From IMG/VR virus record IMGVR_UViG_3300045988_107973: 64,000 nt of DNA; one strand, written 5' to 3'. Position numbers and translations under genes: made by a program. Shown here piece by piece: positions 9,003-57,899 of the stretch. Source of the stretch: a virus. A model generated the notes under the pieces. That model was not told where the DNA came from and made no database searches. It saw nothing but the letters and a program-made list of their open reading frames with translations. Position 1 is the stretch's first letter, and each line of letters opens with the position of its first letter.

Positions 9003-9227
9003 ATGATGGTATATGGAAACATAACGTGTAATCGCTGTGGCATTACATGGTATGGCCCTAAATGTGGAAAGCTCTATTGTGATAAATGTCGTAAGATAAT
9101 AAGAAATGAGGCATCCATTCGATGTAAGAACAAAAAGAAACATAAACCAACATTTGTTGAGATTGTAAGAATGGCAGATGCTGAAGGATTATCTTACGGT
9201 AAGTATTGTTTGAAGTATGGAGTTTGA
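9003..9227 (+). CDS. hypothetical zinc-ribbon protein
   Basis: Product contains CNRCG...CGKLYCDKC. Confidence 0.35.
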   Translation: MMVYGNITCNRCGITWYGPKCGKLYCDKCRKIIRNEASIRCKNKKKHKPTFVEIVRMADAEGLSYGKYCLKYGV

Positions 9228-9237
9228 GGTGAATGTG

Positions 9238-10086
9238 ATGAGTGCGCTTGAAAACGAAAAGAAAATCGAAAATACTGTTGCTCTTGATTTTTCTGACTAC
9301 GATTCTTCTAAAGAAGAAAGGCACCAGAAAGTAATCAAAAGGAATTATAACCTGACTCGGATGGAAGCGAATCATGGAACGGTTCAGCCGATTAAGGACA
9401 AAGAAGATATTAAACGTATTTCAGAATATTTCTGGATTAAACGTCAGTACCGCAACTGGTGTTTGTTTAATGTAGGATGTTGCACAGGATTCAGAGCAAG
9501 TGATTTGCTTCGTTTGAAGGTTTCTGATGTAGCAGCTACAGATATGAATGGAAAGGTTGTGGTGAATTTCAACGCAAAACTTCGTGTTAAGGAAAAGAAA
9601 ACAAATAAGTATCGCATTCTTAAAGTTCCGGTCCCGGCACTAAAGTGTATTCAAACTTATATCAATATTGATGGATTGTCTTATGACGATTGGCTCTTCC
9701 CGTCTCGGCAAGGCAGTTGGAAGAACTCCATGAGAACAAACGGTGGAACAAGCGTAAGTAAATCTGATGTGTTCCGTAAGTATGATGCAAATCCAAAAGA
9801 AATGGGCGATCCGCTTGATGTGGATTCTTTTGGTAGAATCATGCGTCAAGTTGGTAAGGAGCTAAATCTTCCTGTCCAGCTTGGTTCTCATAGCTGCCGC
9901 AAAACTTTCGGATATCAGTTTATTGCATCTCGTCCAAATGACATAAAAGCTCTTGCGTGGTTGCAGCATAGTCTAAATCACAGTAGTCAGGCAATTACGC
10001 TTCGCTATATTGGTCTGGATGAAGAAGTGGATGATGAATACTACTCTGGGATTGATTATGGCGTGGACTGCCATGAAAACTCTTGA
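9238..10086 (+). CDS. tyrosine recombinase (short phage-integrase family, ~283 aa)
   Basis: Catalytic-domain signatures GFRASDLLRLK, LGSHSCRKTFGY, ITLRYIG and HxxR...Y. ATG at 9238 after GAGGTG. Confidence 0.65.
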   Translation: MSALENEKKIENTVALDFSDYDSSKEERHQKVIKRNYNLTRMEANHGTVQPIKDKEDIKRISEYFWIKRQYRNWCLFNVGCCTGFRASDLLRLKVSDVAATDMNGKVVVNFNAKLRVKEKKTNKYRILKVPVPALKCIQTYINIDGLSYDDWLFPSRQGSWKNSMRTNGGTSVSKSDVFRKYDANPKEMGDPLDVDSFGRIMRQVGKELNLPVQLGSHSCRKTFGYQFIASRPNDIKALAWLQHSLNHSSQAITLRYIGLDEEVDDEYYSGIDYGVDCHENS

Positions 10087-13936: not shown

Positions 13937-14713
13937 ATGCCGAGAAGGAAAACAGTAGAAGCACTGCAATTAACGCCGAAAGAAATAGCTCGGAAGTCGC
14001 CTACTTTTATGGAGCTTCCTGAGATGGTAAGCCGTGCTGGTGAGCCTACATACTATTATGATGTGGGAGATGCTGTAGAGATTGGTCATCTTAGCGGATG
14101 CAAGATTGATGAAGTCTGCGACGGTGGTTTATATTACGGTGTTTCTTACGATGATGGATATAGGTACGAAACGTGGTTTAACATTCGTAAAGCAGGTGTT
14201 GAGAAGAAATCTCAACTGACAGAGAATGAAGATATTAAGATTTCTTACTCAAACGTGACCATTGAATCCTTGCTCCACAGGTATTACTTTTTTGGCATCA
14301 ACTGCAATCCGAGTTATCAACGCGGATCTGTGTGGACGGATGATGACCGTGAACTGCTTTTTGAGACAATTTTTATGGGTGGTGAAATCGGTCGATTTGT
14401 TCTAAAAAACATTGACATGGACGAATGGCATGAAAATCAGAACTACCTTTATGAAATCATTGACGGTAAGCAGAGACTTCTGACACTTGCTGCGTTCTAC
14501 GAAGATCGGTTCCGTTATAAAGGATATCTGTACAGTGAACTCTCTAAGAAGGATAAGAGAACCTTTGATGAGACTGCAATTGCTATCGCGGATTTGCGGA
14601 ATCTTTCTAAGAAGGATACGTTGCGTGTGTTCTTGCTTCTGAATCGTGGTGGCAAGGTCGTTTCCAATGCTGTGCTTGACCATGCAAAAGAGCTTCTGAA
14701 CGAAATGGAGTGA
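13937..14713 (+). CDS. DUF262 (ParB/Srx-like, GmrSD N-domain-type) protein
   Basis: Product contains NPSYQRGSVW...LLFETIFMGGEIGRFVL...YEIIDGKQRLLTL, the DUF262 signature (DGQQR-type). Confidence 0.6.
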   Translation: MPRRKTVEALQLTPKEIARKSPTFMELPEMVSRAGEPTYYYDVGDAVEIGHLSGCKIDEVCDGGLYYGVSYDDGYRYETWFNIRKAGVEKKSQLTENEDIKISYSNVTIESLLHRYYFFGINCNPSYQRGSVWTDDDRELLFETIFMGGEIGRFVLKNIDMDEWHENQNYLYEIIDGKQRLLTLAAFYEDRFRYKGYLYSELSKKDKRTFDETAIAIADLRNLSKKDTLRVFLLLNRGGKVVSNAVLDHAKELLNEME

Positions 14714-16537: not shown

Positions 16538-17464
16538 ATGCTTACTGAAGAGAAAATCAACGCTTTTGCCGAAAAGTATTCTGATAGAAGCGGTGAGTTT
16601 GTTATATCGACACTTAACCATGTTATGGATTACGAGGCCGAGCGTGGGTATGAGTTGTTTGACTTCACAAAAGATGATTTTGTAAAGATGTTTGCCAAAT
16701 ACAATTGGGTGAATTCAAGTCGGTCGTTCAGAAATGTAAAGTCAATAATTACAGGTTACATCAAAAGTGAGTATCGAGCGAGCATGTATGACTTAGCTGA
16801 ATTCTCGGAGAGCGACGTGAGTTCAGACAATATGTACGAGGACAAGTATTTTGCGTCAGCTGATGAGTTTGTTGATTTCTTGGACAAGTATGAAGAACCA
16901 TATCAGATTCGTATGAACGTGATTGCCGTGCTGTACTGGATTGGTCTTACTTCCGAAGAGGTTTCTAATCTGACAATTAACGATGTTGATTTTGAATCAT
17001 GTACTGTTCTGAATAAGACCGGTGTTGACGCGAGATTGATGAATATCATTAAGCAGTGTTATGAAATGAAACAATACGATGCTCCAAATATGGGAGGATA
17101 CAGAACGTTTTATGTCATAAATGGTGATTACATTCTTCGCAAAACAGAGGATAGAACTGGTGCAGACAGTGACTCAAGAATGTCTACAAATACGATTCAT
17201 AGTTATTTCACGCGCTTGAATGATATTCTCGAAAGAAGATATCATTCAAAGGCTTTAGACCGAAGACATCTGACCAGAAACGGCGAGTATGTCAAGGTTT
17301 ATAACTACTGTAAAACTCATCCAGAATTTAATCTTGCAGAACTTAGTTTCGGAAATGGTAAAGATCCTCTTGCGGACATTATCGGAAGAAAGTGCAGCAA
17401 GGTTGCCTACATTAGTTTCCGGCAAGGATACAAGGGCTGGATCGAATACTTCCACAAAAATTAA
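16538..17464 (+). CDS. hypothetical protein with a degenerate tyrosine-recombinase-like central segment
   Basis: IRMNVIAVLYWIGLTSEEVSNLTINDVDF resembles the start of an integrase catalytic domain, but the catalytic Arg is replaced by Thr. Downstream motifs are unclear. Confidence 0.4.
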   Translation: MLTEEKINAFAEKYSDRSGEFVISTLNHVMDYEAERGYELFDFTKDDFVKMFAKYNWVNSSRSFRNVKSIITGYIKSEYRASMYDLAEFSESDVSSDNMYEDKYFASADEFVDFLDKYEEPYQIRMNVIAVLYWIGLTSEEVSNLTINDVDFESCTVLNKTGVDARLMNIIKQCYEMKQYDAPNMGGYRTFYVINGDYILRKTEDRTGADSDSRMSTNTIHSYFTRLNDILERRYHSKALDRRHLTRNGEYVKVYNYCKTHPEFNLAELSFGNGKDPLADIIGRKCSKVAYISFRQGYKGWIEYFHKN

Positions 17465-17543: not shown

Positions 17544-19619
17544 ATGATAACAATGTCTGATTTCAAGAAATTTCGTGCACTGCTGCAGGACCACTTCAAT
17601 GAGATGGTGAAGGGCGAAAACCCTCTGTTTATCACCGATGCAGACGAGGATGAACTGTATAACCTGTATCTCGACAGCTTCCCAGCTGGCACGAATGAGT
17701 TGTTCCGTAAGCGGCGCGAGTATGACTGTTCCTGCTGCCGCCGTTTCGTAAAGAACATCGGTAAGCTGGTTTCCTTTATGGATGGTCAGATGGTTACCGT
17801 CTGGGATTTCGATACCAAGTCCGATGTTTATCAGCCGGTTGTGGATGCGCTGGCTGCCTATGTGAAAACCTGCGCTGTTGTGAACCCGTATTACGTCAGC
17901 CGCAATATGATCTCTGATAGCAAGTTTGGCACTGAGATGAACTATGAGTATGACGCTGATCATAAGGCGGTTCATACCTGGGATCATTTCGTTGTCGAGA
18001 TTCCTCAGCGGTTCATTGTGCGTCCCGATGACGTACCTACCAAGATGGCTCAGTGGCGTGATTCCGCCAATGTGTTCAAGCGCTCTCTGGAGGAGCTAAC
18101 CATGGATGCCGTGGACACCGTGCTTGAGCTGATTGCGCAGAACAGCCTGTATCGCGGTAAGGAGTTTGAATCTCTGGTTCGTGGCTTCAAAATCGATAAG
18201 CAAGTGTATGATCGTCTGCCTGATGAAAAGAAGTCCGCTTATGTTTGGATGGCTCCCGGCGGAGCTTCGATGAACCGGCTTCGCATCCGCAATACGGCAA
18301 TCGGTACTCTGCTGGTGAACCTGAGCGAGGGCATGGACGTGGATGCTGCTGTGTCTGCGTTTGAGGCCATTGTTGCTCCCGCCAACTATAAGCGTCCTAA
18401 GGCGATTTTTACCAAGAAGATGCTGGAAGACGCACAGAAAACCGTCACTGAGTTGGGCTATATGAACAGTCTGGGTCGCCGGTTTGCTACTCTGGACGAC
18501 ATCACCGTAAATAACGTTTTATTCTGTAACCGAGACGCAGCCCCTCGTATTACTGGCGCTGTGAATCCGTTTGAAGCAATGGCGAAGACTGTCGCAATCG
18601 ATCCTAAGAAGTTCGGCCGCGCAGAGGAAATCGGTATTGATAAGTTTATCAAGGACGTGCTGCCCACCGCGACTGGTCTGGAACTGTTTATGGAGAATCG
18701 GTTTGAGAAGAATATGACGTCTCTGATTGCTCCGCAGGATAAGAACGCGCCGTCTATGTTCAAGTGGGCGAATGGTTTCAGTTGGGCGTATACGGGTAAC
18801 GTGGCTGACAGCCAGATCCGTGAGAACGTCAAGAATGCAGGCGGTAAGGTTGATGGCGTGTTGCGTTTCTCTATTCAGTGGAACGATAAGCAGTGCGAGT
18901 GGGATGGAAATGACCTTGATGCCCACTGTGTTGAACCGAACGACTTTGAGATCTATTTTGGCAACAAACGAGATTGGAGTACTGGTGGCAATCTGGATGT
19001 AGATATTATTCATCCTGATCGCGATGAGGCCGCTGTTGAGAATATTACATGGCCTGACATCAAAAAGATGAAGGATGGTAAATACGAGTTCTTTGTTCAT
19101 TGCTTCTCTAACCGTGGCGGCAAAACCGGCTTCCGCGCAGAGATTGAATTTGATGGTCAAATCTACTCCTTCAATTACAATATTCCGCTGCGTCAGACTC
19201 AGAATGTTTCTGTTGCTACTGTTGTGTTGAATGATGGGCAGTTTACTATTAAGGAACATCTCAATAGTTCTACTTCTTCCCGTGAAATCTGGGGTGTGAA
19301 TTCCAATCAGTTTGTACCGGTGTCCGTAGCAATGTATTCTCCGAACTACTGGGACGAGCAGAGTGGTAACGGTAATCGTCATTACTTCTTCATGCTCAAG
19401 GATTGTGTAAACCCTGAAAAGCCCAATGGATTCTACAATGAATTCCTGAAGGCGGAACTGCTACAGCATAAGCGAGTATTCGAGGCTCTTGGTTCTCAGA
19501 TGGCAGTTCAGTCGGTAGATGACCAGCTGTCCGGCGTTGGGTTCTCTGAGACGAAACATGATTCCTTTGTTGTCAAGGTTCAGGGCGCTACTGAGCGGGT
19601 TCTGAAAGTTGTTATTTAA
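17544..19619 (+). CDS. large hypothetical protein (691 aa), first gene of the Pnkp/tRNA operon
   Basis: Long ORF after GGAGAATG. No confident family assignment. Antisense ORFs are judged spurious. Confidence 0.5.
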   Translation: MITMSDFKKFRALLQDHFNEMVKGENPLFITDADEDELYNLYLDSFPAGTNELFRKRREYDCSCCRRFVKNIGKLVSFMDGQMVTVWDFDTKSDVYQPVVDALAAYVKTCAVVNPYYVSRNMISDSKFGTEMNYEYDADHKAVHTWDHFVVEIPQRFIVRPDDVPTKMAQWRDSANVFKRSLEELTMDAVDTVLELIAQNSLYRGKEFESLVRGFKIDKQVYDRLPDEKKSAYVWMAPGGASMNRLRIRNTAIGTLLVNLSEGMDVDAAVSAFEAIVAPANYKRPKAIFTKKMLEDAQKTVTELGYMNSLGRRFATLDDITVNNVLFCNRDAAPRITGAVNPFEAMAKTVAIDPKKFGRAEEIGIDKFIKDVLPTATGLELFMENRFEKNMTSLIAPQDKNAPSMFKWANGFSWAYTGNVADSQIRENVKNAGGKVDGVLRFSIQWNDKQCEWDGNDLDAHCVEPNDFEIYFGNKRDWSTGGNLDVDIIHPDRDEAAVENITWPDIKKMKDGKYEFFVHCFSNRGGKTGFRAEIEFDGQIYSFNYNIPLRQTQNVSVATVVLNDGQFTIKEHLNSSTSSREIWGVNSNQFVPVSVAMYSPNYWDEQSGNGNRHYFFMLKDCVNPEKPNGFYNEFLKAELLQHKRVFEALGSQMAVQSVDDQLSGVGFSETKHDSFVVKVQGATERVLKVVI

Positions 19620-19633
19620 GAGGAGAAATTATT

Positions 19634-20017
19634 ATGGAAAAGAATCTGTTTGAAATTGCAACCCGTAATCGCTATCGCTTCAACTATAAGGGTATTATGA
19701 CTGTTGAAGATCTGTGGGCTCTGAGTGTCGAGGCACTAGATGCGATTTTTAAGACCCTGAATCGTCAGAAGAAGACCGCAGACGAAGACTCCCTGCTGGC
19801 TGTTAAGAGTGCCGAAAATACCGAACTGGCAAACAAGATTGAGCTGGTCAAGTATATCGTGTCTGTCAAGCTGGCTGAATCTGAGGCTCGTGTGGATGCA
19901 GCCGAGAAGAAGGCGCAGCGCGATAAGATTATGAAGATTGTGGCAAAGAAGAAGGACAAGGAGCTGGAAGATATGGACGTAGACCAGCTGATGAAGAAGC
20001 TGGAAGAGTTGAACTAA
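19634..20017 (+). CDS. hypothetical coiled-coil protein (127 aa)
   Basis: ORF after AGGAGAAA. K/E-rich and heptad-like. Confidence 0.45.
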   Translation: MEKNLFEIATRNRYRFNYKGIMTVEDLWALSVEALDAIFKTLNRQKKTADEDSLLAVKSAENTELANKIELVKYIVSVKLAESEARVDAAEKKAQRDKIMKIVAKKKDKELEDMDVDQLMKKLEELN

Positions 20018-20086: not shown

Positions 20087-22297
20087 ATGAGAACTTTGCT
20101 TCTTTTCCGTGGAGCACCCGGATGCGGGAAGTCCACCTATATTAAAGAGCATGATCTGGAAAAGTATACGCTTAGTGCAGATACGATTCGCCTTATGTGT
20201 CAGGGTGGTCAGGAAACCCCGGCTGGCACAATGGAAATCTCTCCCCAGAACGATGATGTTGTCTGGGATATGCTCTTTAAGCTGTTGGAGGTTCGGATGT
20301 CTCACGGTGAATTTACCGTGATTGATGCAACGAATTCCAAGACGGTCGAAATGAATCGTTATAAGAATCTTGCAAAACAGTATCGTTATCGGATGTATGT
20401 TATTAACATGACGGACCTTCCGATCGAGGAATGCAAACGAAGAAACGCTCAGAGAGAATGGCTGAAGCGAGTTCCTGAAGCGGCTATTGATAAGATGTAC
20501 GCTCGGTTTGCTACTCAAAAAGTTCCTTCTGGCGTGACAGTTCTTCCTTCTACTACGGATGTGATGTCCGATTTGAACTACTGTCCGAATGACTTCAACC
20601 AGTGGAAGAAGATTCATGTCATCGGTGATGTTCATGGCTGTTATACTTGTTTAAGTGAATACCTTGGTGAGATGAAGGACGATGAACTTTATATCTTCGT
20701 TGGTGATTATCTCGATCGTGGCATTGAAAACGTTGAGGTATTCAAGTTCTTGTGTGATGTTGTAAATAACAACCGCAAGAATGTGATCCTTTTGGAAGGG
20801 AATCACGAGCGTTGGCTGAACAAGTGGGGGCATGATGAACCGGTTCAGAGTGAAGAGTTTGCAAACTACACTCGTCCGCAGCTCTTTAAAGCCGGTATTG
20901 ACAAGAACACTGCTCGTAAAATCTATTCCAGAGTTGGCCAATGTGCCTACTTTGAGTATGATGGGAAGCGGTACTTCGTGAGCCACGGTGGTTTGAGTTA
21001 TCTGCCTTATTTTCTTCCTTTTGTATCTGCTGACCAGATGATTAAAGGTGTAGGTCGCTATCCTGATATGCTAACCGTGGCTGAGTCTTGGGAAAAATCG
21101 ATGCCGGATAGCTACATTCAGATCTTCGGTCATCGAAATGTGCAGGATGTTCCTATTGATATGGGGCATCGGTGCTACAACCTCGAAGGAAAAATCGAGT
21201 TTGGTGGATATCTCCGTTGCGTGGAACTTGAACACGGTCAGTCAATCAAATGTGTAGAAACAAAGAACGATGTGTTCCGAAAAGAGGAGCCAAAGACTGA
21301 AACTGCCGTTGAAATGAAAACTGAGTTCGATAACGCAGAACTTGTCAGTAAGATGCGTCAAAGCAAATATGTGTTTGAGAAGCGATTCGGAGATATTTCT
21401 TCTTTCAACTTCTCTCGTGAAGCATTTTATAAGAAGCACTGGGATGAGGTTTCTACCAAAGCAAGGGGGCTGTTCATTAACACAAAGACGAATAAGATTG
21501 TAGCTCGAAGCTATGATAAGTTCTTTGCGGTCGATGAGCGGAATGAAACGAGAATTGGAAACCTACAGAACACTTTGAAGTTCCCGGTGACTGCATATCT
21601 GAAGGAAAACGGATTTCTTGGCATTGTCTCGTATGATGCAGAACAGGATGGTCTGTTCATTGCAAGTAAATCCACTCCTGAAGGGCCTTTTGCAGATATG
21701 TTCCGAAAGATTCTCATGGATACGACTTCCGATGAAGACCGTAAGAATCTGAAGGAAGTTGCAAAAGAGAATGGTTCAGTCATTTTTGAAGTGATTGATC
21801 CTGTAAATGACCCGCATATCATCGAATACATGACACCATATATTGTTTTGCTGGATATTGTTGCGAATGATATGAACTTCAGTGTGATGGATTACGATGA
21901 TCTGAAGCGTGTTGCTGAAAAGTGTCATTTGCAGATTAAGGAGAAGGTTAAGATCTTTGAGAGCTGGAGTGAATTCTATCCTTGGTATGAAGAAGTCATG
22001 AATGAGAATTATCTGTACCGTGGCATCGAGCATATTGAAGGCTTTGTTTTGAGAGATAACAACAATTTTATGTTTAAGCTGAAGCTTCCTTATTATAAGC
22101 ACTGGAAGTTCTTGCGTGGTGTTATGCAGAGCGTCCAGAAGCGTGGCTATTACGAAAATACCGCAAAGTTGTTTACTGCTGAGGATAACCTGTTCTATGG
22201 TTGGATGCGTGAGCAACGAGAGAAAGACCAGGAATCTTTCTGCAAGAAGGGTATTATTCAGTTACGGAATGAATTCTATGAGAATCGGCACGAATAA
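20087..22297 (+). CDS. Pnkp-like polynucleotide kinase-phosphatase with C-terminal ligase-like region (RNA repair enzyme)
   Basis: N-terminal P-loop LLFRGAPGCGKST (kinase). Central calcineurin-like phosphoesterase motifs GDVHGC, GDYLDRG, GNHE, GHR. About 330 further C-terminal residues contain a KENG candidate adenylyltransferase motif I. The domain order matches bacterial Pnkp. Confidence 0.6.
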   Translation: MRTLLLFRGAPGCGKSTYIKEHDLEKYTLSADTIRLMCQGGQETPAGTMEISPQNDDVVWDMLFKLLEVRMSHGEFTVIDATNSKTVEMNRYKNLAKQYRYRMYVINMTDLPIEECKRRNAQREWLKRVPEAAIDKMYARFATQKVPSGVTVLPSTTDVMSDLNYCPNDFNQWKKIHVIGDVHGCYTCLSEYLGEMKDDELYIFVGDYLDRGIENVEVFKFLCDVVNNNRKNVILLEGNHERWLNKWGHDEPVQSEEFANYTRPQLFKAGIDKNTARKIYSRVGQCAYFEYDGKRYFVSHGGLSYLPYFLPFVSADQMIKGVGRYPDMLTVAESWEKSMPDSYIQIFGHRNVQDVPIDMGHRCYNLEGKIEFGGYLRCVELEHGQSIKCVETKNDVFRKEEPKTETAVEMKTEFDNAELVSKMRQSKYVFEKRFGDISSFNFSREAFYKKHWDEVSTKARGLFINTKTNKIVARSYDKFFAVDERNETRIGNLQNTLKFPVTAYLKENGFLGIVSYDAEQDGLFIASKSTPEGPFADMFRKILMDTTSDEDRKNLKEVAKENGSVIFEVIDPVNDPHIIEYMTPYIVLLDIVANDMNFSVMDYDDLKRVAEKCHLQIKEKVKIFESWSEFYPWYEEVMNENYLYRGIEHIEGFVLRDNNNFMFKLKLPYYKHWKFLRGVMQSVQKRGYYENTAKLFTAEDNLFYGWMREQREKDQESFCKKGIIQLRNEFYENRHE

Positions 22298-22363
22298 CTA
22301 AGATATTTTCTTCCTCCGAAAATGCCCTGCGCGGGGCTGACAGCCGGGAAAGACCGGCAATAT

Positions 22364-22446
22364 GGGGATATGGCGGAATTGACAGACGCAAACGATTCAA
22401 ACTCGTTCGGGAAACCATGTGGGTTTAAATCCCACTATCCCTACCA
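22364..22446 (+). tRNA. tRNA-Leu (anticodon CAA), type II, CCA encoded
   Basis: Hand-folded. Acceptor GGGGATA/TATCCCT. D-arm TGGCGGAATTGACAGACGC is nearly identical to the E. coli tRNA-Leu D-arm. Anticodon stem AACGA/TCGTT with loop TTCAAAC. T-arm GTGGGTTTAAATCCCAC. 3' end ACCA. Confidence 0.55.
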
Positions 22447-22522
22447 GTTCATTTACAGATGAGCATGAGTTAGAATGGCAAATCGGAAAGACGGTTGACT
22501 CTTGGACAGACAGGGTTGATAT

Positions 22523-22610
22523 GCCGCAGTGATGGAGTGACATACATTTCCCGCTTAAACCGGGACGCCTGAAACATGGATCGTGGGTTTGAATCCCACC
22601 TGCGGCACCA
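22523..22610 (+). tRNA. tRNA-Leu (anticodon TAA), type II, CCA encoded
   Basis: Acceptor GCCGCAG/CTGCGGC. Anticodon stem TCCCG/CGGGA with loop CTTAAAC. 17-nt variable arm. T-arm GTGGGTTTGAATCCCAC. Confidence 0.55.
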
Positions 22611-22613
22611 TAT

Positions 22614-22687
22614 CCAGAATGTAGTGTAATGGCAGCACGCTGCGTTTGGGACGCAGAAGAGCGATTCGAATTCGACATTTTGGACCA
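22614..22687 (+). tRNA. tRNA-like element with a Pro(TGG)-type anticodon arm; T-arm non-canonical (possible pseudogene)
   Basis: Acceptor CCAGAAT/ATTTTGG + A + CCA pairs perfectly. Anticodon arm CTGCG-TTTGGGA-CGCAG matches E. coli tRNA-Pro. No 5-bp T-stem could be found around TTCGAAT. Confidence 0.25.
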
Positions 22688-22783
22688 GTAGAGTATTCCA
22701 TTTGCTTTTCATGAATACCTTCCTATTATTCTTGGCTCTCCAAAAAAACGGAGCAGTAGGACGCAGCAAGCCAAGTTACATAA

Positions 22784-22873
22784 TGAGGGTTCGCCAAGTG
22801 GTAAATGGCATCTGGCTTTGACCCAGACAGCGTGCTTTATAGCCGATCGTCGGTTCGATCCCGACACCCTCAA
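22784..22873 (+). tRNA. tRNA-Gln (anticodon TTG)-like with an abnormal 21-nt variable region
   Basis: U1-A72 acceptor TGAGGGT/ACCCTCA and D-arm TCGCCAAGTGGTAAATGGC resemble E. coli tRNA-Gln. Anticodon stem TCTGG/CCAGA with loop CTTTGAC. T-arm GTCGGTTCGATCCCGAC. The segment CAGCGTGCTTTATAGCCGATC is inserted at the variable position. No encoded CCA. Confidence 0.45.
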
Positions 22874-22878
22874 TTTAT

Positions 22879-22967
22879 GGACACGTGATGGAATCGCAGA
22901 CATGAAAGATTTAGGCTCTTTTGCCGTTAACAGCGGTGTGCCCGTTCAAATCGGGTCGTGTCCACCA
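22879..22967 (+). tRNA. tRNA-Leu (anticodon TAG), type II, CCA encoded
   Basis: Acceptor GGACACG/CGTGTCC. Anticodon stem AAAGA/TCTTT with loop TTTAGGC. Variable-arm hairpin CCG-TTAACAG-CGG. T-arm GCCCGTTCAAATCGGGT. 3' end ACCA. Confidence 0.6.
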
Positions 22968-23066
22968 TTATCAACTTATGGTTGCGTACCGTTTGTTGAT
23001 CTCCTTTACTATTATTCCCGGCTCGCCAGTGATGGTGCAGTAGTGCTTTGTAAGCTGGGTTTTCAT

Positions 23067-23141
23067 GCAGCGGTCGTACAACGGCTAGTACATCAGCCTT
23101 CCAAGCTGAGGATGAGGTTTCGACTACCTTTCGCTGCTCCA
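23067..23141 (+). tRNA. tRNA-Gly (anticodon TCC), CCA encoded
   Basis: Acceptor GCAGCGG/TCGCTGC. D-stem GTAC/GTAC. Anticodon arm TCAGC-CTTCCAA-GCTGA is identical to E. coli glyT. T-arm GAGGTTTCGACTACCTT. Confidence 0.65.
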
Positions 23142-23322
23142 ATCTTGTATGGGTAGGATCTTTAGCGGTCAGATCCGGCCGCGCCTGTGCAAGATACCAC
23201 CCCGAAAGGGGCTAACGAAATTTTCTATGTCAATTATTCTCGGCTCACTTAAAAGAGTGCAGTTGACCTTTGTAAGCCGAGTATCCCAGCCTAGTGATGC
23301 CAGTTGCTAGGTTGGTTCTTAT

Positions 23323-23398
23323 GCGACTGTAGTTCAATTGGTAGAGCGTCAGATTTCCAATCTGAATGTTGCGGGATCGTGCCCCGTCAGTCGCTCCA
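23323..23398 (+). tRNA. tRNA-Gly (TCC)-like second copy with a non-canonical T-loop (ATCGTGC)
   Basis: Perfect acceptor GCGACTG/CAGTCGC. D-arm TAGTTCAATTGGTAGAGC. Anticodon arm TCAGA-TTTCCAA-TCTGA. T-arm GCGGG-ATCGTGC-CCCGT lacks T54/A58. CCA encoded. Confidence 0.4.
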
Positions 23399-23529
23399 CA
23401 CGCAGCCCATGACGCTGCACCGGTTACTCAGAGCCGAAAGGAACCTATATGTTACGACATGGTTGCTAAGAGTGATCATATTGGAACGCGACGTAGCTTT
23501 GATAGTGGGAATTAAATTCTGAGGTATAC

Positions 23530-23598
23530 GGCTGGATAGCTTAATGGTAAAAGCGCTCGGAAACACCGAGAGATGAGGTTCGATTCCTCCGCTGGCAT
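23530..23598 (+). other. tRNA-like remnant (good D-arm and T-arm, no acceptor pairing, defective anticodon arm)
   Basis: TAGCTTAATGGTAAAAGC D-arm and GAGGTTCGATTCCTC T-arm. The anticodon region CTCGG-AAACA-CCGAG has a 5-nt loop. The ends are a direct repeat (GCTGG), not complementary. Confidence 0.2.
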
Positions 23599-23625
23599 CG
23601 CGCCGACGAAAGTCGGCGTTTGCAT

Positions 23626-23702
23626 GGGATAGTAGCTCAGTTGGTCAGAGCTGGCGGCTCATAACCGCTTGGTCGCGAGTTCAAATCTTGCCTGTCCCAC
23701 CA
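23626..23702 (+). tRNA. tRNA-Met (anticodon CAT; elongator or Ile-lysidine type), CCA encoded
   Basis: Acceptor GGGATAG/CTGTCCC. D-arm TAGCTCAGTTGGTCAGAGC. Anticodon stem GGCGG/CCGCT with loop CTCATAA. T-arm GCGAGTTCAAATCTTGC. Confidence 0.6.
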
Positions 23703-23817
23703 GCCCGAAAGGGCGTACATAAAACCTGCTAGAACTTTTGTTTTATAGGCGAATGAATAATATGACGTTAATACGTCTATCACTTTTCGCTTATTTTCGG
23801 GAGTTTAACTATATTAC

Positions 23818-23826
23818 ACAGGATAC
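23818..23826 (+). promoter_or_regulatory. conserved motif AACTATATTACACAGGATAC (copy upstream of methyltransferase operon)
   Basis: 19 of 20 nt match the 17501-17520 and 42241-42260 copies. AAGGAGG lies 4 nt downstream. Confidence 0.5.
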
Positions 23827-23844
23827 GAAAAGGAGGAATGAAAC

Positions 23845-25305
23845 CTGAAGCATTACGGAGATATCACACAACTTCATGGATGGCAGATTGAACCGGTTTC
23901 CTGTATCACAGGAGGCAGTCCATGCCAAGATTTGAGTCAGGCCGGTAAACGTGAAGGTTTGACTGGTGAACGCTCTGGATTGTTCCTTGAAATGATTCGT
24001 GTGATTACAGAAATGAGGGAGGCCACCAATGGGGAATGTCCAAAATTCGCAATCTGGGAAAATGTCAGAGGAGCTTTTAGCTCAAGCAAAGGTGAAGACT
24101 TCAGATGTGTGTTGGAAAGATTTGCACGCATTGTCGAGCCAGACGTTTCAATTCCTCGACCTTCAGGAAAGAACGGAAAGTGGGCAAAATCTGGAGCGAT
24201 TTCCGGTAATGGATGGTCTCTTGCATGGAGATTGTTCGACGCTAAATACTGGGGAGTCGCCCAGCGCCGCCAAAGAATCGCGCTTGTCATGGATTTTGGA
24301 GGACAACGTGCCTCAGAAATTCTATTTGAGCGCACGAGCATGTCAGGGGATTCTTGTGAGAGCATCCCGGCGTGGAAAACCTTTGCCCGAACTCCTGAAG
24401 CAAGCGTTGCTGGATATGATCGAATGGTGGAATCCAGGAACTCTGTCACAGGTGGTGCAGAAAGTGAAGGAACAAGAAGGTCTGGAAGAGAAGGAATTGG
24501 ACGAGTATTGGAGTCAAACCATCGAGAGACTTCGACTCGATGCACAGAACCTACAGCCTACACTCTAAAAATCCGCTCTGGATGTGAAGGTGGCGGTAAA
24601 GGCGCTCTGGTTCAAACTGAATTGAGCGCAACGATTTCTACGTTGCAAGACCAGACGCTAATTTGCTTGGTAGAAAATCCCTCCTTACATAATTTAAAAC
24701 AAAAGATCTCGCCGGTAGTATTTGAGAGTCACAGCCAGGACGCTCGATACACTCAGCAGGGTGATACAAGTCCGACTTGTACTGCTCAGTGGGGAACAGG
24801 CGGTAATAATATGCCGCTGGTCGTTGAAAAGAAAGCCTTTGCAATGCAGCGCATTGGTGAGTACAAGGAAAGCGAACACGCCAGCACGATGAAATCTCGT
24901 GATTATAAGGACGCTACTGATCTGATTGCAGAGAAGGAAACGAAGAATCTACGATGGATTGTTCGCCGCTTGACTCCTTTGGAGGATGAACGGTTACAGG
25001 GTTTCCATGACGGATGGACTGATATCGGTGATTGGATCGATGAGAATGGGAAGAAGCACAAGACTTCTGACGCAGCTCGTTACAAGGCGCTCGGCAATTC
25101 GATTGCTTTGCCTCAGTGGTATTGGATTTGCCAGAAGATGAAACCGTATATTGGTGAAAATCCCACGCTTGGCAGTCTTTTCGATGGAATTGGTGGCTTT
25201 CCGCTTGTCTTTGAAAGTACGTATGGTGATGGTACTGCTATCTGGGCGAGCGAAGTGGATAGTTTTTGCATCGCAGTTACAAAGAAAAGATTCCCAGAAA
25301 ATTAA
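23845..25305 (+). CDS. circularly permuted DNA (cytosine-5)-methyltransferase (motif order IV-VI-VIII-TRD-X-I-II/III)
   Basis: In the frame opening after TGA 23839-41: GDITQLHGW...GGSPCQDLSQAGKREG (IV), FAIWENVRGAF (VI), QRRQRIALV (VIII), ALGNSIALP (X). At the C-terminus: SLFDGIGGF (I) and ASEVDSFCIAVTKKRFPEN (II/III). There is no in-frame ATG. CTG 23845 sits 8 nt after AAGGAGG. ATG 23838 is in the -1 frame (17-aa ORF). Confidence 0.6.
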   Translation: MKHYGDITQLHGWQIEPVSCITGGSPCQDLSQAGKREGLTGERSGLFLEMIRVITEMREATNGECPKFAIWENVRGAFSSSKGEDFRCVLERFARIVEPDVSIPRPSGKNGKWAKSGAISGNGWSLAWRLFDAKYWGVAQRRQRIALVMDFGGQRASEILFERTSMSGDSCESIPAWKTFARTPEASVAGYDRMVESRNSVTGGAESEGTRRSGREGIGRVLESNHRETSTRCTEPTAYTLKIRSGCEGGGKGALVQTELSATISTLQDQTLICLVENPSLHNLKQKISPVVFESHSQDARYTQQGDTSPTCTAQWGTGGNNMPLVVEKKAFAMQRIGEYKESEHASTMKSRDYKDATDLIAEKETKNLRWIVRRLTPLEDERLQGFHDGWTDIGDWIDENGKKHKTSDAARYKALGNSIALPQWYWICQKMKPYIGENPTLGSLFDGIGGFPLVFESTYGDGTAIWASEVDSFCIAVTKKRFPEN

Positions 25306-25314
25306 AAGGAGATA

Positions 25315-25863
25315 TTGATGCCAGAAAACAAAGGATATCTTACATCTGACCGATCTACGGCAGGCGACGAGCGATACACTCCGGTTTACGCAGTTGTTCC
25401 ATTGCTTGAATTTGCCCCCCCCCCATCGAGTAAAGCAGTGATTTGGTGTCCGTTTGATAAAGAATGGTCTGCTTTTGTGCAGGTGTTTAGAAATGCTGGG
25501 TACAAAGTAGAGTGTAGCCATATCGATAATGGGCAAGATTTCTTTACATATGAACCAGAACGTTGGGATGTTATGATTTCGAATCCTCCTTTTAGTAAGA
25601 AGGATGATGTGCTGCGTAGAGCATATGAACTTGAAAAACCGTTTGCTCTACTGCTTCCTGCAAATAGTATTCAGGGGAAAACACGATTTGACATTTTTAA
25701 AAATGATGTACAGATGTTGTGTTTTGATTCTCGAATCGGATTTATGGACCCTGAACACACAGACAGTCCTGTCGAGGGAGTGTCGTTTGGAAGTGCATAC
25801 TTCTGTAGAAATTTTCTTCCAAGTAAGTTAGAACTGCGGAAGCTTGATAAGAAAATCTCATAA
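25315..25863 (+). CDS. putative DNA N6-adenine methyltransferase (NPPF motif)
   Basis: Product contains DVMISNPPFS (motif IV, (D/N)PP(F/Y) type) and an N-terminal DERYTPVYAV phage-MTase-like segment. It lies 10 nt after the C5-MTase stop. Confidence 0.5.
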   Translation: MMPENKGYLTSDRSTAGDERYTPVYAVVPLLEFAPPPSSKAVIWCPFDKEWSAFVQVFRNAGYKVECSHIDNGQDFFTYEPERWDVMISNPPFSKKDDVLRRAYELEKPFALLLPANSIQGKTRFDIFKNDVQMLCFDSRIGFMDPEHTDSPVEGVSFGSAYFCRNFLPSKLELRKLDKKIS

Positions 25864-57161: not shown

Positions 57162-57899
57162 ATGGAACTTTATAATGATGATTGTCTGAAAATTATGCCA
57201 CAAATCACAGATAAATCTATCGATATGATTCTTTGTGACTTGCCATATGGTGTCACTCACAATAAATGGGATTCTGTGATTCCTTTCGACAAGCTGTGGG
57301 AACAATACAATCGAATCATCAAAGATAACGGTGCGATTTGTCTGTTTGCTGATGGAATGTTCATGGCAGATCTTATGGAAAGTAACCGCAAAATGTGGCG
57401 ATATAATCTCGTGTGGGATAAAGTTCTTTCATCTGGATTTTTGAATGCAAAACGAATGCCACTCCGCAGTACAGAAGAAATTGTTGTTTTTTATAAGAAG
57501 CTTCCTACATATAATCCACAATTCACAGAAGGTAAACCGCTCCACGGAATGGGCACAAAATATAAAGAAGGAAACCGTAAAAACAACAACTACGGCAACT
57601 TTAATTCTACAAATCAGGCATCTGCGGAAAGAGCGGGTGACACGAAAAAGTATCCGAAATCGCTGGTGACATTTCAAAGAGCACATAGTTCCGTTATGCT
57701 CCATCCAACCGAGAAACCGGTAGCTTTGATGGAGTGGCTTATCAGTACTTACACAAATAAGGGTGAGATCATTCTTGATAATTGTATGGGTGTTGGTGGA
57801 AGTGGTATTGCCGCTAAAAATCTTGAACGAAATTATATTGGTATAGAACTTGACCAAAAATGTTTTGAGATTGCCAAAGAAAGAATCGAGGTATCATGA
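57162..57899 (+). CDS. DNA methyltransferase, N6_N4_Mtase family (beta-class; N6-adenine or N4-cytosine)
   Basis: Motif IV ILCDLPYG (DPPY type). C-terminal motif I HPTEKPVALMEWLI...DNCMGVGGSG. Confidence 0.65.
   Translation: MELYNDDCLKIMPQITDKSIDMILCDLPYGVTHNKWDSVIPFDKLWEQYNRIIKDNGAICLFADGMFMADLMESNRKMWRYNLVWDKVLSSGFLNAKRMPLRSTEEIVVFYKKLPTYNPQFTEGKPLHGMGTKYKEGNRKNNNYGNFNSTNQASAERAGDTKKYPKSLVTFQRAHSSVMLHPTEKPVALMEWLISTYTNKGEIILDNCMGVGGSGIAAKNLERNYIGIELDQKCFEIAKERIEVS

What the first reader, a model, noticed from the sequence alone, without database searches (positions are those of the whole stretch)
22364..23720. Atypical phage tRNA cluster: three Leu isoacceptors, a Gln tRNA with a 21-nt insertion at the variable position, a duplicated Gly(TCC) with a defective T-loop, and tRNA-like remnants separated by GNRA-tetraloop hairpins
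Hand-folding gives clean tRNAs for Leu-CAA, Leu-TAA, Leu-TAG, Gly-TCC and Met-CAT. 22784..22873 has a full E. coli Gln-like acceptor, D, anticodon and T arm but 21 nt (CAGCGTGCTTTATAGCCGATC) where a 4-5-nt variable loop belongs. 23323..23398 is a second Gly-TCC copy whose T-loop is ATCGTGC (no T54/A58). 22614..22687 and 23530..23598 retain tRNA arms but cannot close into a cloverleaf. Stable GAAA-tetraloop hairpins sit between and after the tRNAs: CCCCGAAAGGGG at ~23197-23208, GCCGACGAAAGTCGGC at ~23603-23618, and GCCCGAAAGGGC at ~23704-23715 just after the last tRNA. These could be processing or termination signals. Alternatively the degenerate copies could be decoy substrates for host tRNA-targeting nucleases or the repair enzyme encoded just upstream.
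Basis: seen in the sequence. Interest (0 to 1): 0.55.

Follow-up and report, generated by a model that had tools for sequence, protein, structure and literature searches.

The report
Phage tRNA island with odd-shaped tRNAs
A large gut phage that probably infects Faecalibacterium-type bacteria carries eight transfer RNA genes for codons its host rarely uses, and most of these tRNAs have unusual but evolutionarily maintained shapes, so they look like working variants and not broken copies.

Summary
The cluster is real. ARAGORN and Rfam call eight tRNAs on the + strand: Leu-CAA, Leu-UAA, Pro-UGG, Gln-UUG, Leu-UAG, two Gly-UCC and one CAU tRNA. There is also one weak tRNA-like gene.

- 22614-22687 is a tRNA-Pro with an 8-bp acceptor stem and a shortened T-stem.
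- The 21-nt Gln insertion is a base-paired variable arm. It recurs identically in independent assemblies and has three more allelic forms.
- The "defective" T-loop is an A54/U58 swap: 118 distinct sequences are U/A, 19 are A/U, none is mixed.
- Two of the window's Leu tRNAs (Leu-CAA and Leu-UAA) carry a compensated A19-U56 pair.

Related ~130-kb phages keep the same anticodon slots beside a kinase-phosphoesterase-RNA-ligase gene. They shuffle divergent alleles between slots, and some carry homing endonucleases between the tRNAs.

The likely hosts are GC-rich Faecalibacterium/Gemmiger. All seven cognate codons are enriched in the 41%-GC phage, CUA most of all. The best reading is a codon-compensating tRNA island. 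A counter-defence role is plausible but untested.

The spacers also hold a new covarying leader RNA motif and a CCA-ended minihelix RNA.

The parts
20087..22297 (+). Gene immediately upstream: fusion of a polynucleotide kinase (AAA_33), a metallophosphoesterase and an Rnl1-type RNA ligase, 736 aa from the ATG at 20087
   Evidence: Pfam PF13671, PF00149 and PF09511; phrog_8238 RNA ligase. It is syntenic with the tRNA cluster in all 80 related loci. The exact protein is on 13 metagenomic contigs.
22364..22446 (+). tRNA-Leu(CAA), class II, CCA encoded. T-loop TTTAAAT (U56) with D-loop G18-A19, giving a compensated A19-U56 elbow pair.
   Evidence: ARAGORN; Rfam 50.5 bits; RNAfold cloverleaf; 19/56 table.
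22523..22610 (+). tRNA-Leu(UAA), class II, CCA encoded. T-loop TTTGAAT (U56) with D-loop G18-A19.
   Evidence: ARAGORN; Rfam 47.0 bits.
22614..22687 (+). tRNA-Pro(UGG), 74 nt, CCA encoded. It has an 8-bp acceptor stem and a 3-bp T-stem plus a conserved G48·A62 (8/4-type acceptor branch). It starts 3 nt after Leu-UAA.
   Evidence: ARAGORN; Rfam 45.2 bits; RNAfold. In the 7/5 reading, pairs 47-63 and 48-62 are unpaired in 8/8 alleles. In the 8/4 reading, G8-C63 is paired in 8/8.
22724..22775 (+). Leader RNA motif, copy A: UAUUAUU, then P1 (7 bp) enclosing P2 (5 bp) and a 3' internal loop GCAGU...A. It ends 8 nt before the Gln tRNA.
   Evidence: Repeat family D2; nhmmer; covariation on alignment A2.
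22784..22873 (+). tRNA-Gln(UUG), 90 nt, with a base-paired 21-nt variable arm (22828-22848: CAG-CG-U-GCU[UUAU]AGC-CG-AUC). U1-A72, A73, no encoded CCA. It lies 5 nt upstream of Leu-UAG.
   Evidence: ARAGORN; Rfam 52.8 bits; MFE is a cloverleaf plus an extra arm. The identical gene occurs in 23 fetched loci, a 1-nt variant in 2 more, and there are three other long-arm alleles. 99.1% of cells paired and 10 compensatory pairs on A6.
22879..22967 (+). tRNA-Leu(UAG), class II, CCA encoded. The D-loop AAUCGCAGA lacks the G18-G19 doublet.
   Evidence: ARAGORN; Rfam 44.1 bits in the regional scan, missed by the whole-window gathering scan.
23010..23059 (+). Leader RNA motif, copy B (P2 capped by a GUGA tetraloop). 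It ends 7 nt before Gly1.
23067..23141 (+). tRNA-Gly(UCC) number 1, canonical, CCA encoded.
   Evidence: ARAGORN; Rfam 55.5 bits.
23142..23199 (+). "Mini": a 58-nt structured RNA that starts directly after the CCA of Gly1. It has a 13-bp helix and an internal 5-bp stem with an 11-nt loop, and ends in ACCA. It is a tRNA-derived minihelix that resembles the D-arm and 3' end of the CAT tRNA.
   Evidence: Direct repeats D8 and D9; fold z = -3.8. Present in 44 related loci by blastn; retrieved 61 copies (27 distinct) from the enlarged set that includes the loci fetched. Alignment A3: 97.2% paired, 6 pairs with compensatory double changes, slid controls 20-57%.
23200..23211 (+). Hairpin CCCC-GAAA-GGGG directly after the ACCA of mini.
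   Evidence: Sequence; fold; conserved in relatives; no U-tract.
23232..23281 (+). Leader RNA motif, copy C.
23286..23315 (+). 13-bp hairpin between leader motif C and Gly2. It is the only terminator-like call inside the cluster.
   Evidence: stem of 13 pairs, tail TTCTTATG; fold z = -4.1 for 23220-23322.
23323..23398 (+). tRNA-Gly(UCC) number 2, CCA encoded, with T-loop AUCGUGC (23376-23382): A54 and U58 replace U54 and A58.
   Evidence: ARAGORN; Rfam 62.3 bits, the second best in the window; 54/58 table. The closest catalogued homologues have canonical T-loops. It is the only Gly tRNA in 32 of 81 loci.
23531..23597 (+). tRNA-like gene ("slot X"): a cloverleaf with a 5-nt anticodon loop (AAACA), a 5-bp acceptor stem with mismatches, a 4-bp T-stem and no CCA.
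   Evidence: Rfam 30.0 bits against a threshold of 29; not called by ARAGORN; MFE cloverleaf but z = -0.96. There are 46 copies, all with the 5-nt loop, and one compensatory G-C to A-U change in the T-stem.
23602..23617 (+). Hairpin GCCGAC-GAAA-GUCGGC after slot X.
   Evidence: Sequence; fold.
23626..23702 (+). tRNA with a CAU anticodon, canonical shape, CCA encoded. Probably tRNA-Ile2 (lysidine, reads AUA) and not Met. It is host-derived.
   Evidence: ARAGORN Met-CAT; Rfam 65.7 bits. The best E. coli matches are annotated tRNA-Ile although their anticodon is CAT. The slot is replaced by tRNA-Ile(UAU) in some relatives. Its 40-nt core is identical in Faecalibacterium and Gemmiger chromosomes.
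23703..23714 (+). Hairpin GCCC-GAAA-GGGC directly after the last CCA. In relatives the loop is often GAUA or AAUA.
   Evidence: Sequence; variation; no U-tract.

Best explanation
This is the tRNA island of a roughly 130-kb, 41%-GC phage of anaerobic, GC-rich gut Oscillospiraceae, most likely Faecalibacterium or Gemmiger. It sits just downstream of an RNA-repair enzyme gene on the same strand and is probably co-transcribed with it.

The island supplies decoders for UUA, UUG, CUA, CCA, CAA, GGA and probably AUA. The phage uses all of these codons several-fold more often than the host does.

The anticodon slots are fixed across the phage clade. The genes that fill them are exchanged as divergent alleles by recombination, probably helped by the free-standing homing endonucleases found in the spacers of relatives.

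Most alleles have non-canonical architecture: a long variable arm on Gln, an 8/4 acceptor branch on Pro, an A54-U58 pair, an A19-U56 pair, or no G18-G19 doublet. In each case compensatory evolution keeps the fold, so these are working tRNAs and not pseudogenes.

The polycistronic precursor is probably cut by RNase P and by 3' processing enzymes. Short hairpins after each free CCA end, and a conserved leader motif 5-8 nt upstream of the Gln and Gly genes, probably act as processing or stability elements.

What is shown: the gene calls, the covariation, the allele shuffling, the codon bias and the host match. What is inferred: expression, processing, aminoacylation, and any link to the repair enzyme.
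For: Gene calls: ARAGORN and Rfam.

Conserved slot order beside the repair gene in 80 loci.

Allele diversity: 5-10 allele classes below 88% identity per slot and 30 haplotypes in 87 loci. Mean identity is 70-77% in the five upstream slots (86% for the CAT slot), against 88% for the adjacent gene. With a 100% identical repair protein, the 3' half of the cluster still varies.

HNH and GIY-YIG endonucleases and a TnpB-like protein lie between tRNAs in relatives.

Fold maintained:
- 54/58 is U/A in 118 distinct sequences, A/U in 19 and never mixed.
- U56 always comes with G18-A19.
- Long-arm Gln: 99.1% of cells paired, 10 of 22 pairs compensatory.
- Pro 8/4.
- The swapped-loop Gly is the only Gly tRNA in 32 of 81 loci.

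Host: exact 40-nt matches of the CAT tRNA core in 80 genome contigs, mostly Faecalibacterium, Gemmiger and related Oscillospirales, with a few bins labelled Bacteroides, Barnesiella or Oxalobacter. Those loci have about 60% GC.

Codons: CUA is 4.9 per 1000 in the phage against 0.36 in the host, the highest enrichment of any codon. UUA ranks fifth. CAA, CCA, GGA, UUG and AUA are enriched 2-4-fold.
Against: - No expression, processing or charging data exist.
- The host assignment rests on one tRNA. Host codon usage comes from heuristic ORFs in nine 8-kb loci.
- Only the early or replication half of the phage was available for codon counts.
- AGA, UCA, ACA, GUA and GCA are equally enriched but have no tRNA here.
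- Codon compensation does not explain why the elbow, the variable arm and the acceptor branch are so diversified, nor the adjacency to an RNA-repair enzyme.
- Slot X and mini have no obvious decoding role.
Confidence: 0.6

Rival explanations
1. The island is mainly a counter-defence module. Host immune nucleases or toxins cleave or disable host tRNAs during infection. The phage replaces them with variants of altered shape or sequence that escape recognition, repairs cut tRNAs with the adjacent kinase-phosphoesterase-ligase, and may use the CCA-ended minihelix or slot X as decoys.
For: - The cluster lies next to an RNA-repair enzyme in every related locus.
- Allele turnover is extreme while the anticodons stay fixed.
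- Diversification is concentrated on recognition surfaces: the elbow, the variable region and the acceptor branch.
- Conserved non-decoding tRNA-like RNAs are present.
- Published precedent exists for phage tRNAs that evade or replace tRNAs targeted by defence systems (PMC10264068, PMC11555353, PMC11464382). T4 Pnkp and Rnl1 repairing PrrC-cut tRNA-Lys is established knowledge, cited in PMC10264068.
Against: - No tRNA-targeting system of the host was identified.
- Anticodon loops, the documented evasion site, are largely canonical here.
- Known anticodon-nuclease targets such as Lys, Tyr and Arg are not represented.
- Codon bias alone predicts the anticodon set well.
Confidence: 0.25
2. The odd genes are decaying or neutral copies: pseudogenes tolerated because host tRNAs do the work, with diversity caused only by homing-endonuclease-driven recombination and drift.
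For: - Slot X barely passes Rfam (30.0 bits against 29), has a 5-nt anticodon loop and no CCA, and folds no better than shuffled sequence (z = -0.96).
- Position 35 of its loop varies.
- Homing endonucleases are present in relatives.
- The module containing the second Gly and slot X is absent from about half of the relatives.
Against: - Compensatory changes preserve every helix and two tertiary pairs.
- No single-sided 54/58 or 19/56 variants occur.
- Variant genes are often the only occupant of their slot.
- Rfam scores of 44-62 bits.
Confidence: 0.1
3. The long-variable-arm UUG tRNA is charged with a different amino acid (Leu or Ser, whose synthetases ignore the anticodon) and recodes CAA codons, as the nematode nev-tRNAs do.
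For: It has a class II-like arm on a non-Leu/Ser/Tyr anticodon and discriminator A73, as in tRNA-Leu. Nev-tRNAs carrying Gly or Ile anticodons and charged with Leu are a precedent (PMC3333845).
Against: - The acceptor stem, the D-arm and U1-A72 are those of the short-arm Gln alleles in the same slot.
- A73 is shared by all Gln alleles, long or short.
- The D-loop is not Leu-like.
- CAA makes up 24% of Gln codons in conserved replication genes, so recoding would be costly.
Confidence: 0.04

Closest known systems
Phage T4 tRNA gene cluster with Pnkp/Rnl1 RNA repair and the SegB homing endonuclease; phage T5 tRNA region with HNH endonucleases (from established knowledge, not tested here)
   Same: A polycistronic cluster of about eight tRNAs, including closely spaced Gln-Leu and Leu-Pro pairs. 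Extra small stable RNAs sit inside the cluster, some CCA ends are not encoded, free-standing homing endonucleases lie between tRNA genes in relatives, and the same genome has a polynucleotide kinase/phosphatase and an Rnl1-type ligase.
   Different: Here kinase, metallophosphoesterase and ligase are fused in one 736-aa protein placed directly upstream. The host is an anaerobic Gram-positive gut bacterium. Most of the tRNAs have non-canonical architecture, and the alleles in each slot are far more diverse.
Codon-compensating tRNA sets of AT-rich phages infecting GC-richer hosts
   Same: The anticodons match codons that are enriched in phage genes relative to host genes.
   Different: Coverage is partial: there are no tRNAs for AGA, UCA, ACA, GUA or GCA. 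Compensation also does not account for the structural variants.
8/4 and 9/3 tRNAs (allo-tRNAs; 8/4 tRNA-Ser and tRNA-His in phage tRNA clusters), Mukai et al. 2017, PMC5389517
   Same: A 12-bp acceptor branch built from a longer acceptor stem and a shorter T-stem, found in a phage tRNA cluster.
   Different: Here the anticodon is Pro(UGG), which that paper does not mention. There is no long variable arm, the D-arm is ordinary, and the fourth T-stem pair is a conserved G·A.
Class II tRNAs with non-Leu/Ser/Tyr anticodons (nematode nev-tRNAs, PMC3333845)
   Same: A base-paired long variable arm on a tRNA whose anticodon normally belongs to class I.
   Different: The body of the phage tRNA is Gln-like and not Leu-like. 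The arm is a short insertion (4-5 bp) into an otherwise class I tRNA. Related arms occur on CAU tRNAs in the same clade.
Phage tRNAs that evade or replace tRNAs cut by host defences (van den Berg 2023 PMC10264068; Azam 2024 PMC11555353; Burman 2024 PMC11464382)
   Same: Phage-encoded tRNAs that differ from host tRNAs, within a genome also armed with RNA repair.
   Different: Published evasion is by changes in the anticodon loop. Here the anticodon loops are ordinary, and the changes lie in the elbow, the variable arm and the acceptor branch. No cognate defence system is known.
Eukaryotic initiator tRNA A54-A58 T-loop (review PMC7912444)
   Same: It departs from the otherwise "universally conserved" U54.
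   Different: The initiator keeps A58. Here both partners are exchanged (A54 with U58), in elongator tRNAs for Gly, Pro and Leu.

Membership tests
tRNA (Rfam RF00005) | Covariance-model score at or above the gathering threshold of 29 bits | tested here: met
   Nine hits at 65.7, 62.3, 55.5, 52.8, 50.5, 47.0, 45.2, 44.1 and 30.0 bits. The 30.0-bit hit (23531-23597) is marginal and ARAGORN does not call it.
tRNA (canonical cloverleaf) | 7-bp acceptor stem plus 5-bp T-stem | tested here: not met
   This applies to the Pro gene 22614-22687 only. T-stem pairs 47-63 and 48-62 are unpaired in 8/8 alleles, while an 8th acceptor pair G8-C63 is present in 8/8. The other seven ARAGORN-called genes have 7/5 branches.
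tRNA (canonical tertiary core) | U54-A58 reverse-Hoogsteen pair; G18-G19 pairing with U55-C56 | tested here: not met
   The second Gly has A54/U58. Leu-CAA and Leu-UAA have A19/U56, and Leu-UAG lacks the GG doublet. The features are met for Gly1, Gln, Pro and the CAU tRNA.
Class II (long variable arm) tRNA | A base-paired variable arm of more than 10 nt | tested here: met
   Gln 22784-22873 has a 21-nt region that folds as a 5-bp stem with one bulge and a UUAU loop in the MFE structure. The outer two pairs are invariant in 5 alleles and each allele forms at least 4 bp. Covariation inside the arm is weak because the registers differ.
Class II tRNA | Leu, Ser or Tyr identity (bacteria) | tested here: not met
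   The anticodon is UUG, and the acceptor and D arms match the short-arm Gln alleles of the same slot. Charging was not tested.
8/4 tRNAs (Mukai et al. 2017) | 8-bp acceptor stem plus 4-bp T-stem, totalling 12 bp | tested here: inconclusive
   There are 8 acceptor pairs and 3 Watson-Crick T-stem pairs plus a conserved G48·A62. The 8th pair never varies, so it is compatible but not proven by covariation. A 9/3 reading (U9-A62) is also possible.
tRNA-Ile2 (CAU anticodon modified to lysidine) | CAU anticodon with Ile-type body; modification by TilS | tested here: inconclusive
   The best E. coli matches (81% over 70 nt) are annotated tRNA-Ile although ARAGORN reads them as CAT. The slot alternates with tRNA-Ile(UAU). 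Lysidine itself cannot be tested with these tools.
Intrinsic (rho-independent) terminator | GC-rich hairpin followed by a U-tract | tested here: not met
   None of the three GAAA hairpins was called, and none is followed by a T run. The only call inside the cluster is 23286-23315, upstream of the second Gly. The number found does not exceed the number found in shuffled sequence.
T4-type tRNA repair (Pnkp plus Rnl1) | 5' kinase, 2',3'/3' phosphoesterase and Rnl1-family ligase activities encoded by the phage | tested here: met
   The AAA_33 kinase, Metallophos and RNA_lig_T4_1 domains are in one protein. This is domain-level evidence only. Activity and substrate were not tested. The phosphatase is a metallophosphoesterase and not the HAD type of T4 (the T4 type is from established knowledge).
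Bacterial Pnkp/Hen1 repair system | Pnkp equivalog (TIGR04075) with an adjacent Hen1 methyltransferase | tested here: not met
   TIGR04075 scores 76 bits against a cut-off of 750 and covers only the N-terminal 300 residues. The neighbouring genes (691 aa and 127 aa) have no methyltransferase or any other Pfam, NCBIfam or PDB match.
Any described RNA family, for the spacer elements | A match to an Rfam 15 model | tested here: not met
   In 22250-23850 at E <= 10, only tRNA hits and two chance Plastid-ycf2 hits on the opposite strand were found.

The most novel reading that the evidence does not exclude
This phage clade maintains a repertoire of deliberately reshaped tRNAs: a swapped 54-58 pair, a swapped 19-56 pair, an inserted variable arm and an 8/4 acceptor branch. 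These still decode, but they escape a host factor that recognises tRNA shape or the elbow, such as an immune tRNase, a toxin or a modification-dependent checkpoint. The adjacent repair ligase, a CCA-ended minihelix decoy and a dedicated leader RNA would form the rest of a multi-layer counter-defence. If so, structural diversification of tRNAs outside the anticodon loop would be a new arms-race strategy.
Probability: 0.2. Interest if true: 0.85.

Novelty: new variant of a known kind. Interest (0 to 1): 0.6.

Why it matters
Phage tRNA islands are common and usually treated as ordinary. This one shows that features considered nearly universal in tRNA can be exchanged in natural elongator tRNAs as long as the partner changes too. 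Those features are the U54-A58 pair, the G19-C56 pair, the 7/5 acceptor branch and the short variable loop on tRNA-Gln.

That gives tRNA structural biologists natural test cases for what the translation apparatus, RNase P, the CCA-adding enzyme and the modification enzymes actually require.

It also gives phage-defence researchers a concrete, testable system. The likely host, Faecalibacterium, is cultivable, and there are matched canonical and variant alleles in the same slot. This makes it possible to ask whether tRNA-targeting immunity selects for changes in tRNA shape.

The leader motif and the CCA-ended minihelix are new candidate non-coding RNAs in one of the most abundant bacterial groups of the human gut.

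Tried and rejected
- The isolate-genome scan with the repair protein found no relatives. The look-up of the protein from its GTG start found nothing; it worked from the ATG at 20087.
- INPHARED holds no close relative of the cluster. The best match is an unannotated human-faecal fragment, MT835676.1.
- My first pattern for the leader motif had a gap one base too short and missed the commonest variant. The hits it did give outside the clade had only 3-4 of 7 P1 pairs and no nearby tRNA, so they are chance matches. I did not rescan.
- The RNAfold MFE for the inner part of mini (GCGGUC/GGCCGC) is not the helix supported by covariation, which is 15-19 with 31-35.
- I considered reading slot X as tRNA-Val(AAC) for the strongly enriched GUU codon. 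I rejected this because position 33 is A, the loop can close to 5 nt, and position 35 varies between copies.
- A promoter role for the leader motif is unlikely. The motif occurs only in the tRNA cluster (3 hits in 64 kb, none in host loci), and its G·U pairs point to RNA on the + strand.
- The promoter and terminator scans gave nothing above shuffled expectation.
- The literature searches found no paper with all of the terms A54, U58, T-loop and tRNA, and none describing a long-variable-arm tRNA-Gln in phages. The hyphenated search terms (A54-U58 and similar) were rejected by the tool and never run. The key mutagenesis paper on the 54-58 pair (Zagryadskaya 2003, PMC165963) is not in the library, so I do not know whether A54/U58 was functional in that screen.
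- The two genes upstream of the ligase gave no Pfam, NCBIfam or PDB match.

Full report
**What is there.** ARAGORN finds eight tRNA genes on the + strand between 22364 and 23702: Leu-CAA, Leu-TAA, Pro-TGG, Gln-TTG, Leu-TAG, Gly-TCC, Gly-TCC and Met-CAT. Rfam's tRNA model scores all eight at 44-66 bits and adds a ninth, marginal hit at 23531-23597 (30.0 bits, threshold 29). Seven genes encode CCA. Gln and the marginal gene do not.

**Genomic setting.**
- The gene ending 66 nt upstream (20087-22297) encodes a fusion of an AAA_33 kinase, a metallophosphoesterase and an Rnl1-type RNA ligase.
- The gene downstream is a C5 DNA methylase.
- The window also carries a DNA polymerase, helicases, RecJ, anaerobic ribonucleotide reductase NrdD, ThyX, FolD and several tyrosine recombinases, including a Tn916-type integrase. 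This is the replication region of a large phage of an anaerobe.
- The catalogued phage collection has no close relative of the cluster. The repair enzyme is at most 45% identical to proteins of SPbeta-like and Twort-like phages.

**Relatives.** IMG/VR holds at least 117 contigs with the repair enzyme. The 80 best are 89-99% identical and come from genomes of about 125-139 kb. All have the tRNA cluster directly downstream, in the same slot order. The exact 736-aa protein is on 13 further metagenomic contigs. On six of these the 5' half of the cluster is identical to the window, including the 90-nt Gln gene, while the 3' half differs. This rules out an assembly artefact and shows recombination inside the cluster.

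**Allele diversity.**
- Each slot holds 15-24 distinct sequences that fall into 5-10 classes below 88% identity. There are 30 five-slot haplotypes among 87 loci.
- Mean pairwise identity is 70-77% for the five upstream slots and 86% for the CAT slot, against 88% for the last 900 nt of the repair gene.
- In some relatives the spacers hold roughly 0.8-1.8-kb insertions that encode HNH and GIY-YIG homing endonucleases and a TnpB-like protein. The window itself has none.

**The Gln tRNA.**
- The 21-nt segment (22828-22848) folds as an extra arm in the minimum-energy structure, which is otherwise a perfect cloverleaf.
- A pattern built from the arm's flanks finds it in 18 viral contigs, all from this clade.
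- Four allelic forms exist, with arms CG-U-GCU[UUAU]AGC-CG, CG-A-GC[UUUAU]GC-CG, CGCU[GAACA]AGCG and CGCU[UUGAUCG]AGCG.
- Across the five distinct long-arm sequences, 99.1% of cells pair and 10 of 22 pairs show changes on both sides, against 29-45% pairing in the slid controls. The cloverleaf has therefore been under selection since the arm arose.
- Most relatives carry a 71-77-nt Gln gene in the same slot. A 92-nt CAU tRNA with a comparable arm occurs in about ten relatives.

**The "defective" T-loop.**
- Among 137 distinct tRNA sequences from 80 related loci and the window, positions 54/58 are U/A in 118, A/U in 19 and never mixed.
- The A/U form occurs in Gly-UCC, Pro-UGG, Leu-UAG and Leu-UAA lineages.
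- 63 of 81 loci carry at least one such tRNA. In 32 loci it is the only Gly tRNA present.
- The gene scores 62.3 bits with Rfam.
- Its nearest catalogued homologues, the tRNA-Gly genes of Serratia and Aeromonas phages, have canonical T-loops on a similar backbone.
- A recent review calls U54 universally conserved, with the eukaryotic initiator (A54-A58) as the exception (PMC7912444).
- I found no paper in the searched library that describes an A54-U58 pair.

- The Pro gene cannot form a 5-bp T-stem in any of its 8 alleles. It does have an eighth acceptor pair, G8-C63, and a conserved G48·A62 in all of them. This matches the 8/4 design described for phage tRNA-Ser and tRNA-His (PMC5389517).
- Leu-CAA and Leu-UAA have U56, and exactly those sequences have G18-A19 in the D-loop. 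This is a compensated A19-U56 pair, seen in 8 of 8 U56 sequences; 134 sequences are C56 with GG, and six more (five of them the Leu-UAG lineage) keep C56 without a GG doublet.
- Leu-UAG lacks the GG doublet.
- Only Gly1 and the CAU tRNA are canonical in every respect.
- The two Gly genes are 62% identical, so they are distinct isodecoders.

**The CAU tRNA.**
- Its best E. coli matches are annotated tRNA-Ile even though ARAGORN reads their anticodon as CAT. This is the signature of lysidine-type tRNA-Ile2.
- In some relatives the slot holds tRNA-Ile(UAU) instead.
- I therefore read the slot as an AUA decoder. Lysidine modification itself cannot be tested here.

**Host and codon usage.**
- A 40-nt core of the CAU tRNA matches exactly in 80 genome contigs. 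Almost all are from Faecalibacterium, Gemmiger, Subdoligranulum and other Oscillospirales, including complete F. prausnitzii genomes; a few bins are labelled Bacteroides, Barnesiella or Oxalobacter.
- These loci have about 60% GC, and their tRNA is 87-91% identical to the phage copy. The window has 41.4% GC.
- I compared 12,302 phage codons with 13,847 codons from heuristic Faecalibacterium ORFs. CUA shows the highest phage/host enrichment of any codon (18-fold by synonymous fraction) and UUA ranks fifth. CAA, CCA, GGA, UUG and AUA are enriched 2-5-fold by either measure (synonymous fraction or frequency per 1000 codons).
- This fits classical codon compensation.
- It is incomplete, because AGA, UCA, ACA, GUA and GCA are equally enriched and have no tRNA here.
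- It also rests on a host inferred from one tRNA and on the early region of the phage only.

**Spacers: the leader motif.**
- Three spacers carry a repeat that is a structured RNA: conserved UUAUUC, then a 7-bp helix that encloses a 5-bp helix and a roughly 21-nt 3' internal loop beginning GCAGU. The inner helix is usually capped by a GNRA tetraloop.
- nhmmer finds 196 copies in 95 loci, with 74 distinct sequences.
- On 42 distinct sequences, 97.6% of cells pair, against 24-44% when slid, and 8 of 12 pairs show compensatory changes. RNAalifold predicts the same structure.
- Frequent G·U pairs place the structure on the + strand.
- The motif ends 5-8 nt before the next tRNA in 176 of 195 copies and always precedes the Gln or Gly slots.
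- It has no Rfam match. It is absent from the host loci and from the rest of the window.
- Its function is unknown. Because it sits at a fixed distance from the RNase P site, I favour a role in 5' processing or precursor folding.

**Spacers: mini and slot X.**
- Directly after Gly1, 23142-23199 ("mini") forms a 13-bp helix with an internal stem-loop and ends in ACCA. A GAAA hairpin follows, just as after the CAU tRNA (repeats D8 and D9).
- Sixteen variants of mini give 97.2% pairing and six compensatory pairs. It is a conserved, tRNA-derived minihelix RNA and not a decaying remnant.
- Slot X (23531-23597) is present in 46 copies that are all at least 94% identical. All have the 5-nt anticodon loop, and there is one compensatory T-stem change. 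The data cannot decide between a functional tRNA-like RNA and a young pseudogene.

**Hairpins.**
- The three GAAA hairpins are real, but none has a U-tract and the terminator scan does not call them.
- In relatives the loop after the CAU tRNA is often GAUA or AAUA, so the stem is conserved and not the tetraloop.
- From the sequence, every CCA end that is not followed at once by another tRNA is followed by a short hairpin. This suggests a role in 3' end definition or protection. That is an inference.

**Interpretation.** The best-supported reading is a codon-compensating tRNA island. Its slots are fixed by anticodon, its occupants are swapped by recombination, and its unusual shapes are maintained by selection. 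Codon compensation leaves three things unexplained: why the diversification falls on the elbow, the variable region and the acceptor branch; why the island is welded to an RNA-repair enzyme; and what the minihelix and slot X are for. An arms race with host factors that recognise tRNA shape would explain all three. It has published parallels for the anticodon loop (PMC10264068, PMC11555353, PMC11464382). Nothing here tests it, and the anticodon loops themselves are ordinary.

Noticed in passing
window 22724-22775, 23010-23059, 23232-23281: A new structured RNA motif in the tRNA leaders: a 7-bp helix enclosing a 5-bp helix (usually GNRA-capped) and a conserved GCAGU...A internal loop. It has strong covariation and no Rfam match, and it ends 5-8 nt before the Gln and Gly tRNAs.
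   Followed up: yes
window 23142-23199: A 58-nt CCA-ended minihelix RNA derived from a tRNA, conserved and covarying in 44 relatives. It starts directly after the CCA of Gly1 and is followed by a GAAA hairpin.
   Followed up: yes
L055 6378-7331, L028 6417-7181, L037 6860-7706, L044 6821-7813, L059 7772-8981, L058 7181-8997: Relatives carry HNH and GIY-YIG homing endonuclease genes, and in L058 a TnpB-like gene (Cas12f1-like TNB domain), inserted between tRNA genes. The window has none.
   Followed up: partly
L002 6971-7044 and 18 other loci (the Gly1 slot): A 74-nt tRNA-like gene that ARAGORN calls His-ATG. Its anticodon loop is UGAUGAA (G at position 33), it has U1-A72 and no CCA. It is another non-canonical occupant of a slot.
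   Followed up: no
L003 7234-7325, L045-L051, L063 and others; L026 7294-7369, L052 7695-7770: The last slot can hold a 92-nt CAU tRNA with a long variable arm (UGAG[AAUAACAC]CUCA), an 81-nt CAU tRNA, or a tRNA-Ile(UAU).
   Followed up: partly
Gln slot of L002, L004, L009, L028 and others: Several alleles with a UUG anticodon have C1-G72 instead of the U1-A72 pair typical of bacterial tRNA-Gln. This raises the question of how they are charged.
   Followed up: no
window 17544-19619 and 19634-20017: Two conserved genes of unknown function (691 aa, phrog_1735/DUF8224; 127 aa, phrog_2018) precede the repair-ligase gene in the window and in all six exact-protein loci examined. Neither has a Pfam, NCBIfam or PDB sequence match.
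   Followed up: partly
window 13937-14713, 23932-25305, 25315-25863, 57162-57899: A protein with a GmrSD N-terminal-like domain, and three DNA methyltransferases (one C5, one EcoRI-like and one N6/N4). These suggest heavy investment in restriction evasion. The region downstream of the tRNAs is itself highly variable among relatives (66% mean identity).
   Followed up: no
window 9217-10086, 16538-17464, 62834-64000: Three tyrosine-recombinase-like genes, one with a Tn916-type integrase DNA-binding domain, in a phage of about 130 kb.
   Followed up: no
window 47386-48909: A phage-encoded SPFH/flotillin-family protein next to the anaerobic ribonucleotide reductase gene.
   Followed up: no
leader motif copy A, window 22743-22748 and relatives: The loop of the inner helix in copy A is an A-run whose length varies among otherwise identical copies. 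This is either homopolymer slippage or sequencing error.
   Followed up: no
L105 377-457 (E. coli prophage) and L125 144-200 (Aeromonas phage 65.2): The depositors' annotation marks "tRNA-OTHER" genes inside other phage and prophage tRNA clusters, so non-canonical tRNA-like genes may be a general feature of such clusters.
   Followed up: no
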